From positions 1 through 27,236 of the forward strand of contig CM032194.1 in assembly GCA_018985225.1 (NCBI GenBank): DNA of 27,236 nt. Reading direction: 5' to 3'. Positions 528 through 27,138 of this stretch are shown in pieces (position 1 is the first letter of the stretch; each line of letters starts with the position of its first letter). Origin of the DNA: Amoeboradix gromovi X-113 (Eukaryota > Fungi > Sanchytriomycota). Under the pieces are notes generated by a model that saw nothing but the letters and a program-made list of their open reading frames with translations, did not search any database and was not told where the DNA came from. Made by a program: the position numbers and the translations under genes.

Positions 528-5190
<4,663 letters not shown>

Positions 5191-9503: not shown

Positions 9504-9516
9504 AGAATAATTTAGA

Positions 9517-9588
9517 TAAGCAATACCAGACTTGAACTGATAACCCACGCTTTGTAGGAGCGGCGCTCTACCATTGAGCTAATTGCCT
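9517..9588 (-). tRNA. trnV: tRNA-Val(UAC)
   Basis: Acceptor AGGCAAT/ATTGCTT; loop CCTACAA (C33). Confidence 0.9.
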
Positions 9589-9597
9589 AGAAAAGGA

Positions 9598-20701: not shown

Positions 20702-20774
20702 CTGAAGTTGGTGTTAATAGGTAACATATTCTCTTTGGGAGAGTTTGCTGCAAGTTCGAGTCTTGCACTTCAGA
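20702..20774 (+). tRNA. trnP: tRNA-Pro(UGG)
   Basis: Acceptor CTGAAGT/ACTTCAG; loop TTTGGGA; weak anticodon stem. Confidence 0.88.
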
Positions 20775-20849: not shown

Positions 20850-22748
20850 AAAAAGAAAGTTTCTTAAGGTTCTTTAGGTATAAAACTAAAGAAGGATAAA
20901 AAACTAAAGAAAAGAGGAAAAATTAAGAAGAAAAAGATATCACATAACAATGAAAAAGAATAAAGGGCGATTGGTGGAAAACTAGTCATATTAAACGAGT
21001 TAACGTATATAGAAATAGTGAATAACACAGTTTACTCATCTTAAAAAGCAAATTAGAAAAGTTCTTAAGGATAAAAACTTAAGAAAAAGGAGTAAGCTAA
21101 GTTTTACAAGAGAAATCAGAAAAATTATTAAGGTTCTTTAGGTATAAAACTAAAGAAGGAAAAAAACTTAAGAAAAAAGAGGCTAAACCTAGCGAACTGA
21201 AGCATCTAAGTAGCTAGAGGAAAAGAGATTTGGTAAGTAGCGGCGAGCGAAAGTCAAGAAGAAGAAAAAACGAGAGTAGAAGGTAAAAACTTCAGAAGAA
21301 AGAGGAAACTCTAAAACTAAATACGATAATATGAACGATAGTGGAGAGTACCGTGAGGGAAAGTTGAAAAGAACCTAAGCTTATTTAAGCGAACCAAAAT
21401 AGCTAAGTTGAGTGAAAAGGGGGGAAGTTAAATGAGTAAAAAAAGGAGTGAAATAGAACAGGAAACCAAGAAGCCTAAAAGCAGTCTGAGGAAGAGAAAA
21501 TCTGAAGGCGTACCTTTTGCATAATGGGTCAGCAAGTTTATTAGTATAGCAAGATAAAAAGTCTAGAGGAAACTGAAAAATTATTAAGGTTCTTTAGGTA
21601 TAAAACTAAAGAAGGAAAAAAACTTAAGAAAAAGAGAGTTATGCTAATAAGACCCGAAACAAAGTGATCTATTGATGGTCAGGTAAAGAAAGAGAGACCG
21701 AACAGAAGACTGTGGCAATAGTCTCTGAAGAACTGTCAATAGCAGTGAAAAGCTAATCGAACTTTGAAATAGCTGGTTCAGTGTGAAATCTATAAAAGTA
21801 GATAGGTAAAAAAGAAAAAATGGAGGGTATAGCACTGAATTGAAATAACAAAAATTTAATCTAAGAATAACCATTTAACCCACAAAACCAAAACCTTTCT
21901 TAAGGATAAAAAACTTAAGAAAACCAGAAAGTAAAGAAGAAGGAAAAGGAAAATTTCTTAAGGTTCTTTAGGTATAAAACTAAAGAAGGATAAAAACTTA
22001 AGAAAAAGGGGGTACTATTTACTGGTCGGACTTATAGTGATAAGATTATAGGTCGAGAGGGAAACAGCCCAGATCATAAGTTAAGGTCCCAAAAGAAATC
22101 AAAGTACAAAATTTATTAAGGATAAAATCTTAAGAAAAGGTAAGTTGATAAAAAAAAAGTGATAAGAATATTTCCCAACCCCTATAGTAAAAAGTAGGAG
22201 GTAATAAAAATAAGCTAAATGTGGGCTTGGAAGCAGCCATCATTAATAGAAAGCGTTACAGCTCAAAGAGTGGATTAAGGGAGATAGAAAATATAAAGGG
22301 TCTAAAAGGAAAACCGAAACTATGATAGACTAAGAGACTTAAAAAATTATTAAGGATAAAAACTTAAGAAAAAAGTAAGAAAAGTAGGAGGTAACACTGT
22401 ATTCCATAAGTGGGAAGAAGGAAAAATGAAAATTTAACTGGACAAATTGGAAGAAAGAATGCTGACATGAGTAATTAAAAATAAGAGGATATTCCCCTAA
22501 AGTTGAAGAGAAGGAAATAGACGCTTTCTAAGATTGAGACTAAAGTTAAGATCGATGAAAAAAAGGAGCGTATCAACCGACAAAGGACAACGAGCTGGTA
22601 AACAGTGAAGGGGAAAAGGGAGAAACATTGTTAAGGAACTCGGCAAAATGAATGCGTGATTTAGGTATAAGCATGACTAGTTGGAAACAAAACTTAAAAA
22701 AAGGAGTAGAAGACGAGTGACATAAAAAAGGGAAGAGCGACTGTTTAC

Positions 22749-23535
22749 GTGCGACGTGACAGCTCATATTCAATACTCCTTGTGAGTCTTGAGTTTTGTC
22801 CCTCATGTATCTATCCTGACATGCGTTGAGAGTAATCTCTAGGTGTGGAGCTCAGGAGACAAAGTAGCCTAAGGGAGCGAGATATAATACAGCACTAGGA
22901 CAAATGGTAACGTGAAAGTATGAAGAGGCATTATATATTCAGGTTATGTTTTCGTAAACTGGCATAACAGGATGAATAGCGAAGTATATAGTGTAGAGTA
23001 CTTGTCTAAGGTGTTGTTTGGTGGATATGAGTGAACACGGTAAGCCCAATGGGATTGATGTTGAAAAACAGAAAGGAAGAGACGTAAGTGGATTTATCTC
23101 CCAGTGGGTAGACGAGATAGGAGAAAGCAAATGGTCACTTGTAATGAGTGATATAGACTCTTTTGAGTTGATCCGAAAGGGTGCAAAATTCCTTAAGGTG
23201 GTTAGGTCTAATTGATTACTTTGCCTCTTCTTATTAGTGTGTAATGCACATGCAGGATAGTGACCTTAGCTCCTGGAAAGCATGATGGGTGGCGTAATCA
23301 GGTAAGAGTAGGAGCCGTAACCACTAGAATAAATAGCCAAATAATAAAGAAATATGATAAGAAAACAAAATAAAATATTAGAAGCATATAAGTTAGGAAA
23401 CAAGAAGAAATGTTTGTACTCTATAATGCTCCTGTCCCAAGAGGGCAGGTCGTACTGCTTGAGCTGTATGCGGTGAAAGTCGCACGTACAGTTCTGAGGG
23501 GGGGAAAATCCTGAGAAGGAAATACCTATCCCAAG
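22749..23535 (+). mobile_element. ORF-less group II intron (IIB-like) at the LSU L1787-equivalent site
   Basis: 5' GTGCG; EBS1 GTAAAC (22954-22959) pairs with exon GTTTAC; domain V GAGCTGTATGCGGTGAAAGTCGCACGTACAGTTC; domain VI with GAGA loop and bulged A23528; splicing restores ACTGTTTACCAAAAACAC. Confidence 0.93.
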
Positions 23536-24193
23536 CAAAAACACAAAAGTTAGCAAGAAAAAGAAATTTAAAGTATTAGCTTTGACACCTGTCCGGTGTC
23601 TCCAAATGAAAGTAGTGTATAACTAATTAAATTGAGATAAACGACCGCCTTAACTCTGAGGGTGCTAAGAGTAGCAAAGTCCATTGGCTAATAATTGTAG
23701 TCCTGTGAAGGGTGTAACGACTTTTCCGCTTTCTTAACAATGAGCCTGATGAAATTGAAACAGCTGTGCAGATGCGGTAGACCATTAGCTAGACGAGAAG
23801 ACCCTATGAAGCTTAACTGAAACCTTAGACAAGGATAAGGAGAAAAATGTGGAGAACATATTGAAAATAATCACTCAAAAACGAAAGTAAAAGAGAAAAA
23901 TCTAAGGTAGAGAGTTTGACTGGGGAGGTGGCCTGTAAAAGAGTAACACAGGTATATCGAAGGTATGATAATAAATTAGAGAGAAAAATAACGTGTAAGA
24001 ACTCTAATCTAAATAAAGTTAATGGCATAAAAAAATCATGCTTGACTGTAAGACTGAAAGGTCGAGCAGGTACGAAAGTAGGACATAAGATCCTGGAGTT
24101 GAGATATACTCTGGATAAATTGATAAAAGCTACTCTAGGGATAACAGCCTAATACTACTTAAGAGTCCATATTGACAGTAGTGTTTGGGACCT

Positions 24194-25348
24194 CTAATAA
24201 CATTGGGGTCGTAATTGGACTAAATGCTAAAACAGCCATACCATAAGTTAACTACCACTAGGATAGTTAATGTTATACAAAATAAGCCGTGTATAAATGA
24301 TAGATTATTATCTATTAAGATGGTTGTAAAGGTATATTTGAGAAGATATATTTGTGGCCAATCAGCAGGTAACCAAATATTACAATATTCAACTACAACT
24401 GACTTATAAAAGGTCAAACTAAAGGAAAAGTAGAGAGGTAATAAAGTAGGAACCTCAACGACTATATGTCCAACTAAAGAAATTTAGAAGAGATAGTCTA
24501 AACAATAATGTAAATTATTGAAGTTATTTATTTTAATTCTTTATCTCAATTCCTCCACGCACATTGGTGCTACAAGATGGTATAACAGTCCTGATTGGAC
24601 TAATACTAATAAAAGAGAAGAACGGGAAGAGATTAAAAAATAATAGATGAATAAAGAGATAAAGAAATTAGGAGGTAAATTACATGACATTATGATAGGT
24701 ATCTCATTAGGAGATGCACACATTAGAACAAAAACAAAGGGAAAATCATGAACATTAAGATTTAACCAGGGACAAAAAAACAAAGAGTACTGTATCCACG
24801 TATATGAACAGTTCAAAGCTCTGTGTAATAATCCACCAAAAATAACAACAGATAAAGACATGAGGTCCGGTAAATTAGTAGAATATCAAAAAATAACTTG
24901 ACAAACAAGGGTAACAGCAGAATTACATTATTATGGACATTTGTTCTATAAATGAGATGCTTTTAAACCCAGAAGAGTGGGTTCAGGGATAGGTACATTT
25001 GTGAAAGTGATACCAGTTAACATAGAAGAATTAATCAGTCCTATAAGTTTAGCTTACCTGTATATGGATGATGGACATTTACAATTAGATATAAACAATG
25101 GAACTAAAGGAGCATATCTATGTTTAGGTGGATTTACTCAAAGTGAAATATTGTTATTAGTTGGTGTGTTAAACAAGAAATGAGGATTCGATGCAAGAAT
25201 ACATGAACAGAAAAGAATATATATACCTCAAGGAAGTTTAACTAAGTTTTATAGTGTTATAAAACCACATATCATTGATTCAATGAAATATAAAATAAAA
25301 TAACTTACTTAAAAAGGTGTTGATCAAATATCGTATAAATCCTTTTTG
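24194..25348 (+). mobile_element. Group I intron (IB-like) at LSU L2500
   Basis: P1 GACCTC/GGGGTC with U-G at the splice site; AATCAGCAGG, CTCAACGACTA / AAGAGATAGTCT; splicing restores GACCT|CGATGTCGGC. Confidence 0.93.
24647..25303 (+). CDS. LAGLIDADG homing endonuclease (I-SceI-like, 218 aa), free-standing in the rnl intron
   Basis: IMIGISLGDAHI, SLAYLYMDDG, IKPHIIDSMKYKI; own ATG and TAA. Confidence 0.92.
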
Positions 25349-25901
25349 CGATGTCGGCTTAGCTTATCCTGGCGCTGAAGAAGGTGCCAAGGGTTGGACT
25401 GTTCGTCCATTAAAAAGCTACGTGAGCTGGGTTCAGACCGTCGAGAGACAGGTCGGATTCTATCTACTAATGGGAGAAAGAAGGAAAAAAGAAAGCCTAG
25501 TACGAAAGGATCGGTATAACTAGAGCCTATAGTATAACTATTGATTAATAGAGATCATTGTAGTTTAGCCACGCTCTTAAGGATAAGAACTGAAAAAATA
25601 TCAAGTTTAAACCCTATTTTGCTATCTTAAAGTGACTAACTCTAGATCAGGGTATAGGTTGAATGTGAAAGTAATGAGAATTATTAAGCATAACAATACT
25701 AATATGTCAACTTTTTCATTGTTAGATATCTTTACATAGATATGTTAGACTTCTTAAGGTTCTTTAGGTATTTAACTAAAGAAGGAAAAAATCTTAAGAA
25801 AGAGGAAGGAGGAAGGTTTATTAAGTATCTTTAGGTTTAGAAACTAAAGAAAAGGATAAAATATTAAGAAAGGAGGAGATAAAATAAATAGAAGAAAAGA
25901 A

Positions 25902-26628: not shown

Positions 26629-27138
26629 ATGAGAAAAGAAGATTTAAATTGAAAAAAATGGAAGGAAAATAGAATAGGGGAAATAATAGAGAAAGGAAGA
26701 CAAGAAAAATGAACATGGAAAATGAAAGAGAATAAGATAGGATATAAAAGAAATGAGAGTGTAATATTAACTGATGAAAAGGATAATAAATGAATAGGTG
26801 GAAATAAGATAGAGATGCCGGAGAGAGGGATAGGATATTTAAATTTAAGATTGTTAGAAAAGTATATAACTAATAGTCAACAAAAAGGATATAAACCACC
26901 GGCAATAGAGAAGATAAGAACAGGGAAGATAGAAATAAAGGGAATAAGAGTAGAGAAAGGAGGAAATATAATGAATGAAACAAGGAAGAATATACAAAAA
27001 GAAACAATAGGAACATTTAAAAATAAATTAATAAGAAAGTTAGATTTTCCATTATACAATAGAAGAGCTATAATAGGACATAAGATAAAAATAGCGTGAT
27101 CAGTAAATGAAAACTTTTTCTTAAGAAAAAAAAAATAA
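26629..27138 (+). CDS. rps3: Divergent ribosomal protein S3-like ORF (169 aa, code 4)
   Basis: Basic, K/R/I-rich; IKGIRVEKGGNI and RAIIGHKIKIAW resemble the two C-terminal uS3 motifs; starts 1 nt after the cox2 stop. Confidence 0.6.

What the first reader, a model, noticed from the sequence alone, without database searches (positions are those of the whole stretch)
22749..23535. Group II intron with spliceosome-like GU...AG boundaries
Seen: it starts GTGCG and ends CCTATCCCAAG. Three features place the 3' splice site after G23535. Restoring the conserved ACTGTTTA-CC-AAAAACAC needs C23536 in the exon. The bulged A23528 falls at -8, as in IIB introns. The likely EBS3 (G in AGGA after the EBS1 stem) pairs with C23536. 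Established: group II introns end in AY, with the last base pairing to gamma in J2/3. Here J2/3 appears to be GGA, so gamma-gamma' would be G.G. The intron has no ORF, no reverse transcriptase or maturase is encoded in the genome, and it interrupts an essential rRNA, so it must splice. Inference: a natural AG-ending ribozyme relevant to the origin of spliceosomal 3' splice sites.
Basis: partly seen in the sequence, partly recalled or inferred. Interest (0 to 1): 0.75.

Follow-up and report, generated by a model that had tools for sequence, protein, structure and literature searches.

The report
Intron with flipped end-pairing, ending AG
An intron of the self-splicing group II type in the mitochondrial ribosomal RNA gene of a fungus-like microbe ends in AG, as our nuclear introns do, and the internal base that normally grips the last letter has switched to C, so the two likely still pair: a rare flipped form of a known contact rather than a spliceosome-like mechanism.

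Summary
The intron is real: 787 nt, ORF-less, subgroup IIB1, GUGCG...AAG at 22749-23535, in rnl of a complete circular mitochondrial genome without reverse transcriptase. The site is E. coli 23S position 1781, not 1787. A profile built only from bacterial IIB1 introns matches 23033-23202 (E 1.9e-12) and puts C23113-G-A at J2/3; that column pairs with the last intron base in 22 of 22 references (G-C or A-U). So gamma-gamma' is an inverted C-G Watson-Crick pair, not G.G, which also argues that the terminal G is genuine. The true EBS3 is G22996, pairing with C23536. RNA contigs of relatives join 22748 to 23536 exactly (4 of 4 runs), though from other alleles. GU...AG group II ends are already tabulated for the Ulva cox1-874 family, so the AG end itself is not a first; I found no report of a natural C-G gamma pair or of an L1781 intron. 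Self-splicing is untested. The 3' G is read by a pairing the spliceosome lacks, so relevance to spliceosome origins is modest.

The parts
21140..25708 (+). host gene rnl (mitochondrial LSU rRNA), split by this intron and a group I intron
   Evidence: Rfam LSU matches
22743..22748 (+). IBS1, end of 5' exon; last base = E. coli 23S 1781
22749..23535 (+). group IIB1 intron, 787 nt, ORF-less, GUGCG...AAG
   Evidence: (joint skips 787, GT..AG)
22755..23039 (+). domain 1 (I(i) 4/4, I(ii) 10/10, ID(ii) 5/5, ID(iii+iv) 11/11 pairs); no ID2 loop, no EBS2 found
22795..22801 (+). alpha (IB loop)
   Evidence: pairs 7/7 (two G-U) with 22970-76; inferred
22954..22959 (+). EBS1, preceded by delta C22953
   Evidence: 6/6 Watson-Crick with IBS1
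   Evidence: columns 22970 and 22971 pair with IBS3 in only 4/22 and 1/22 references
22996..22996 (+). EBS3 G in A-G-A of the coordination loop
   Evidence: column pairs with first 3' exon base in 18/22 references; same A-G-A context as rnl-1787 introns with IBS3 C
23044..23109 (+). domain 2
   Evidence: 5/5 basal stem; fold z -2.45; alignment
23113..23115 (+). J2/3 C-G-A; gamma = C23113
   Evidence: nhmmer E 1.9e-12, column 22/22 Watson-Crick with last base in references
23116..23196 (+). domain 3 (basal stem weak: 5/8 paired)
   Evidence: 6/6 basal stem; 23203-23335 folds no better than shuffles (z +1.29)
23461..23494 (+). domain 5 with AGC triad
   Evidence: RF00029
23498..23532 (+). domain 6 with bulged branch A23528 (-8)
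   Evidence: 4/4 and 3/3 pairs; same layout as the rns-952 intron of L034
23533..23535 (+). 3' tail AAG; gamma' = G23535
23536..23536 (+). IBS3 C, first base of 3' exon (E. coli 1782)

Best explanation
This ORF-less group IIB1 intron in the mitochondrial LSU rRNA gene ends in AG and carries C at the gamma position, so it likely splices by the ordinary lariat pathway with an inverted C-G gamma-gamma' pair holding the last base. Shown: the boundaries, all six domains, EBS1-IBS1 complementarity, and C and G at the homologous gamma and EBS3 columns. Inferred: EBS1 binds the 5' exon, A23528 attacks G22749, domain 6 swings and EBS3 G22996 pairs with C23536 to set the 3' splice site, exons join to restore the conserved loop, and C23113 pairs with G23535. 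The swap from the usual purine-pyrimidine pair probably passed through a tolerated mismatch, since EBS3 and domain 6 set the site first. Splicing is probably RNA-catalysed, alone or with general nuclear helpers; with no ORF and no EBS2 the intron is probably immobile.
For: Reference-only profile hits once in 27 kb, 23033-23202, E 1.9e-12; gamma column 22/22 Watson-Crick (14 G-C, 8 A-U), window C opposite G (first seen; 15 G-C and 8 A-U among 23 unique references). EBS3 column 18/22. Both alternative ends break both pairs. Joint 22748>23536 without gap in 4 of 4 RNA runs, 2 studies, 3 of them with 31 or more bases on the shorter side. X2 holds the joined form and a diverged homologous intron piece; X8 holds a 166/166 identical intron piece. 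Canonical fungal rns-952 intron L034 has the same D6 layout with G at gamma and C at the end. Cryo-EM of a IIC intron: EBS3-IBS3 defines the 3' site and gamma-gamma' engages after ligation (PMC10733145, passages). RmInt1 mutants keeping Watson-Crick gamma pairing are less impaired than mismatches (PMC4238363 section 7). ORF-less fungal rRNA IIB1 introns self-splice (PMC8643640, passages).
Against: No RNA from this allele spans the junction: the joined contigs in X2 and X8 carry a 23-nt exon deletion and those in X5 and X6 differ more, so they may be intronless strains. No independent run shows the letters at 23113 or 23535; X1 may be the source. No second L1781 intron end was found (0 of 28 metagenome hits; 0 of 1 genome hit), so the C-G pair rests on one sequence. 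References are related bacterial introns, not independent events, with a 6-nt rather than 7-nt branch spacer. Domain 3 basal stem is weak (5/8). All RmInt1 gamma substitutions lowered efficiency.
Confidence: 0.85

Rival explanations
1. Same boundaries and C-G pair, but the RNA cannot splice on its own and depends on nuclear-encoded helicases or RNA-binding proteins. (Not exclusive with the main reading on boundaries.)
For: Weak domain 3 base (5/8); no EBS2 found; gamma substitutions slow RmInt1; host factors are common for organellar introns.
Against: D1, D5, D6 and branch geometry intact; ORF-less, EBS2-poor fungal rRNA IIB1 introns self-splice well.
Confidence: 0.35
2. One reading: gamma is G23255 and the end is a G.G mismatch, so the G is read in some spliceosome-like way.
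For: A GGA preceded by a hairpin with a GUAA-type loop does occur at 23237-23257.
Confidence: 0.03
3. The intron splices one base later (ends AGC), leaving an rRNA one base shorter.
For: It would give a pyrimidine end; IIB 3' sites can lie 3 or 4 nt past domain 6 (PMC1865049, passage).
Against: Gives C.C at gamma and G.A at EBS3; all joined contigs of relatives keep C23536.
Confidence: 0.04
4. G23535 is a sequencing or assembly error or a neutral recent change.
For: Only one, possibly non-independent, run covers it.
Against: It would have to coincide with the exactly complementary change at gamma, 422 nt away, in a column that is purine in 23 of 23 references; contig depth 48 with no difference.
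Confidence: 0.03

Closest known systems
Fungal and algal mitochondrial rRNA group IIB1 introns (rnl-1787 including P.li.LSUI2, rnl-2059, rns-788, rns-952)
   Same: IIB1 fold, rRNA host, branch A at -8, A-N-A EBS3 context, frequent loss of EBS2 and ORF
   Different: Insertion after 1781, six bases upstream of rnl-1787, whose 5' exon runs on through the A tract; own EBS1; C-G instead of purine-pyrimidine gamma pair
Bacterial chloroplast-like class 1 (CL1, IIB1) retroelement introns (loci L037-L113)
   Same: D2, J2/3, D3 align column for column
   Different: They encode RT/maturase, have a 6-nt branch spacer, an ID2 loop, and always G-C or A-U at gamma (23 of 23)
Ulva mitochondrial cox1-874 (IIB2-LHE) and cob-877 (IIA1) introns
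   Same: Tabulated with AG 3' ends: 21 rows of cox1-874 (17 GUGCGA, 4 GUGUGA) and 1 row of cob-877 (PMC13026550 Table S6)
   Different: Other subgroups, protein-gene hosts, ORF-bearing; their gamma base is not given in the text I could read ('gamma' 0 times in main text and supplement); ends are annotations
U2-type spliceosomal introns (GU...AG)
   Same: Terminal dinucleotides GU and AG, branch A
   Different: The spliceosome has no reported gamma-gamma' pair; it reads the last G through a non-Watson-Crick contact with the first G (recalled, paper not held)

Membership tests
group II intron | 5' GUGYG | tested here: met
group II intron | domain 5 with AGC triad and domain 6 with bulged A | tested here: met
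   RF00029 68.7 bits
group II intron | six-domain structure | tested here: met
group II intron | EBS1-IBS1 | tested here: met
   6/6
group II intron | Watson-Crick gamma-gamma' | tested here: met
   C23113-G23535, (complementarity at the homologous column; pairing itself inferred)
group II intron | 3' consensus AY with purine gamma | tested here: not met
   ends AG, gamma C; consensus with known exceptions
group II intron | splices via lariat | not testable with these tools
   only contigs available
subgroup IIB1 | EBS3-IBS3 in coordination loop | tested here: met
   G22996-C23536
subgroup IIB1 | 7-nt branch-to-3' spacer of eukaryotic IIB1 | tested here: met
   A23528 at -8; PMC9294222 passage
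subgroup IIB1 | IIB1-type D2/D3 sequence | tested here: met
   nhmmer E 1.9e-12
subgroup IIB1 | EBS2-IBS2 | tested here: not met
   no ID2 loop or fitting complement; loss is common in rRNA introns
rnl-1787 family | insertion after 23S position 1787 | tested here: not met
   after 1781
spliceosomal intron | nuclear location, snRNA-supplied catalysis | tested here: not met
   mitochondrial rRNA gene, own D5

The most novel reading that the evidence does not exclude
A natural, protein-free lariat ribozyme with the full GU...A...AG signature, founding a family at an undescribed rRNA site (L1781) in early-diverging fungi, and the first documented natural C-G inversion of gamma-gamma'. It would show that the spliceosomal AG end is two point changes away from a canonical group II intron, and give an evolved scaffold in which to ask whether a first-G to last-G contact can replace gamma.
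Probability: 0.3. Interest if true: 0.65.

Novelty: new variant of a known kind. Interest (0 to 1): 0.47.

Why it matters
Group II introns are the presumed ancestors of spliceosomal introns, yet they end in AY while nuclear introns end in AG. A short, ORF-less intron in an essential rRNA with a compensated C-G gamma pair shows that the AY rule is a preference for purine-pyrimidine orientation, not a requirement, and is an easy in vitro substrate for testing what a terminal G does in a group II active site. It also predicts that the AG-ending Ulva introns carry C at gamma, and warns that AY-based boundary callers will misplace such ends. It does not by itself show a spliceosome-like mechanism.

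Tried and rejected
Homologues at this site: D5-to-exon pattern gave 28 metagenome loci, none in rRNA or homologous, and 1 viral locus, chance; 5'-junction pattern gave 3 viral loci and 1 genome locus, all chance; cox2 found no relative in viral contigs; earlier-finding look-ups by sequence and words were empty. Other introns with pyrimidine gamma: 26 viral loci and 15 more, none with a D5 downstream (a few have under 1 kb downstream). Rfam gives no D2/D3 model hit. Whole-intron MFE fold was not informative. No intron cover in X3 and X7 proves nothing; D5 pieces in X5 and X6 belong to other introns. Papers: terms for L1781 gave 62 papers, 20 listed, none on introns; searches for natural inverted or AG-ending cases gave 0 or off-topic lists; the 1782-2586 covariation was not found in print. 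Li et al. 2011 on rRNA group II introns and Wilkinson et al. 2017 are not held, nor did I see Jacquier and Michel 1990, so a prior mention of L1781 or of natural C-G pairs is not excluded. Some helix coordinates (ID(iv), D3, D4) were mis-set and redone.

Full report
Setting. The window is a complete circular mitochondrial genome (99-nt terminal overlap) using UGA for Trp, with cox1-3, cob, atp6, atp9, nad1-6 and 4L, rns, rnl and 24 called tRNAs. Cox2 has six unnamed relatives at 71-88% identity; named hits (Fonticula, Allomyces, Blastocladiella, Conidiobolus, Rhizophagus) are at 55-60%, so the host is an early-diverging fungus or close relative. No RT or maturase family was found among 20 of 78 ORFs scanned, which include all sense-strand ORFs of 165 aa or more; the nuclear genome is not held.

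Observation. The intron runs 22749-23535 (787 nt), GUGCG to AAG, with Rfam D1 and D5/D6 matches. Counting on E. coli rrlB puts the insertion after position 1781. The rnl-1787 family inserts six bases later (PMC13190283 Table S3, supplement part 9). '1781' does not occur in that paper's main text and a term search listed nothing on introns; Li et al. 2011 was not available.

Is the G real, and is it the last base? The contig of run X1, possibly the source, matches 21968-24300 without difference at depth 48. In 4 of 4 RNA runs laid (2 studies) a contig joins 22748 to 23536 with no gap and no ambiguity; shorter sides are 105, 22, 48 and 75 bases. These contigs are not from the window's allele (23-nt exon deletion in X2 and X8; more differences in X5 and X6), so they fix the mature rRNA sequence in relatives but do not prove splicing here. 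X8 also holds the window's exon allele and an intron piece identical over 166 nt; X2 holds a diverged homologous intron piece (6 of 44 and 9 of 58 differences, letters not shown) beside the joined form, a hint of a spliced relative.

Re-mapping the core. I first accepted GGA 23255-57 as J2/3. I gathered references: 16 plasmid loci chosen from BLAST hits and 61 viral-contig loci from a pattern with the gamma position left free. Of these 77 loci, 23 unique introns had J2/3, D5 and a readable end; the rest lacked the pattern (3), were chance matches, truncated, duplicates or had a broken D6. All 23 pair gamma with the last base: 15 G-C, 8 A-U. A profile from the 22 with enough upstream sequence, window excluded, hits the 27 kb window once (23033-23202, E 1.9e-12) and places C23113-G-A on J2/3. 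Gamma is therefore C and complements G23535. The A-G-A context matches that tabulated for IBS3 = C, and the fungal rns-952 intron in L034 shows A-A-A there, as tabulated for its family. Ending one base earlier or later breaks both pairs. The references are related to one another, so 22 of 22 is not 22 independent events, but it identifies the column. No other intron with a pyrimidine at gamma turned up (0 of 26 and 0 of 15 loci). The rRNA also has C at 2586, which I recall covaries with C1782; I could not find this in print.

Mechanism. Shown are sequence and complementarity; inferred is the standard IIB pathway: EBS1-IBS1 sets the 5' site, A23528 branches, EBS3-IBS3 and domain 6 set the 3' site, and C23113 holds G23535. 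Structures of a IIC intron show gamma-gamma' engaging after exon ligation (PMC10733145, passages), which makes a mismatched intermediate on the way to inversion plausible. In RmInt1 every gamma substitution cost efficiency, Watson-Crick ones less (PMC4238363, passages and section 7; tables not held, so I cannot say which inverted pair was tested). ORF-less fungal rRNA IIB1 introns self-splice (PMC8643640, passages), so autonomy is likely but untested; the weak base of domain 3 (5 of 8 pairs) argues for caution.

Known cases and novelty. Reviews state the end as AY with a purine gamma. However, Table S6 of PMC13026550 lists AG ends for 21 Ulva cox1-874 introns (17 GUGCGA, 4 GUGUGA) and one cob-877 intron (supplement parts 8-10 of 11 read; section 7), without comment on gamma; intron sequences in PMC13190283 Table S5 are cut at 400 letters, before J2/3. 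So GU...AG ends are in print as annotations. I found no report of a natural C-G gamma pair, within a library that lacks the classic papers. Other papers seen as passages only: PMC1865049, PMC9294222, PMC8063479; PMC4424553 passages and section 29. The latter names gamma-gamma' as a feature not reported for the spliceosome, so this intron reads its G in the group II way.

Verdict. New variant of a known kind; interest 0.47.

Noticed in passing
window 24194-25348: Second rnl intron after E. coli position 2500, ending in G like group I introns, with a 218-aa LAGLIDADG_2 ORF at 24647-25303.
   Followed up: partly
window 528-5190: cox1 is split by introns carrying three LAGLIDADG ORFs, two fused in frame to upstream exons.
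   Followed up: no
window 9515-9589 (-) and 20702-20774 (+): ARAGORN calls Cys(aca) and a second Gln(ttg); by eye both read as Val(UAC) and Pro(UGG) one base off, which would fill the two missing tRNAs.
   Followed up: partly
window 26629-27138: 169-aa lysine-rich ORF right after cox2 with no Pfam or PDB match; possibly a diverged rps3 (inference). No atp8 found with a simple motif.
   Followed up: partly
L036 (NZ_CP110133.1) 1-39093; L034 912-3078: A record filed as a Peribacillus plasmid looks like a fungal mitochondrial genome: mitochondrial-type rRNAs, tRNA clusters, group I introns and an rns-952 group II intron.
   Followed up: partly
window 23237-23326: Inside domain 4 a hairpin with a GUAA-type loop followed by GGA-UAG echoes the domain 3 motif; the profile does not score it, so a remnant duplication is unproven.
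   Followed up: partly
window 22688-22713: Exon segment just upstream of the intron is 23 nt shorter in relatives in X2 and X8; X8 holds both alleles.
   Followed up: no
window 22922-22929 and 23223-23230: An 8-nt perfect complement between the coordination-loop region and domain 4; could compete with folding or be chance.
   Followed up: no
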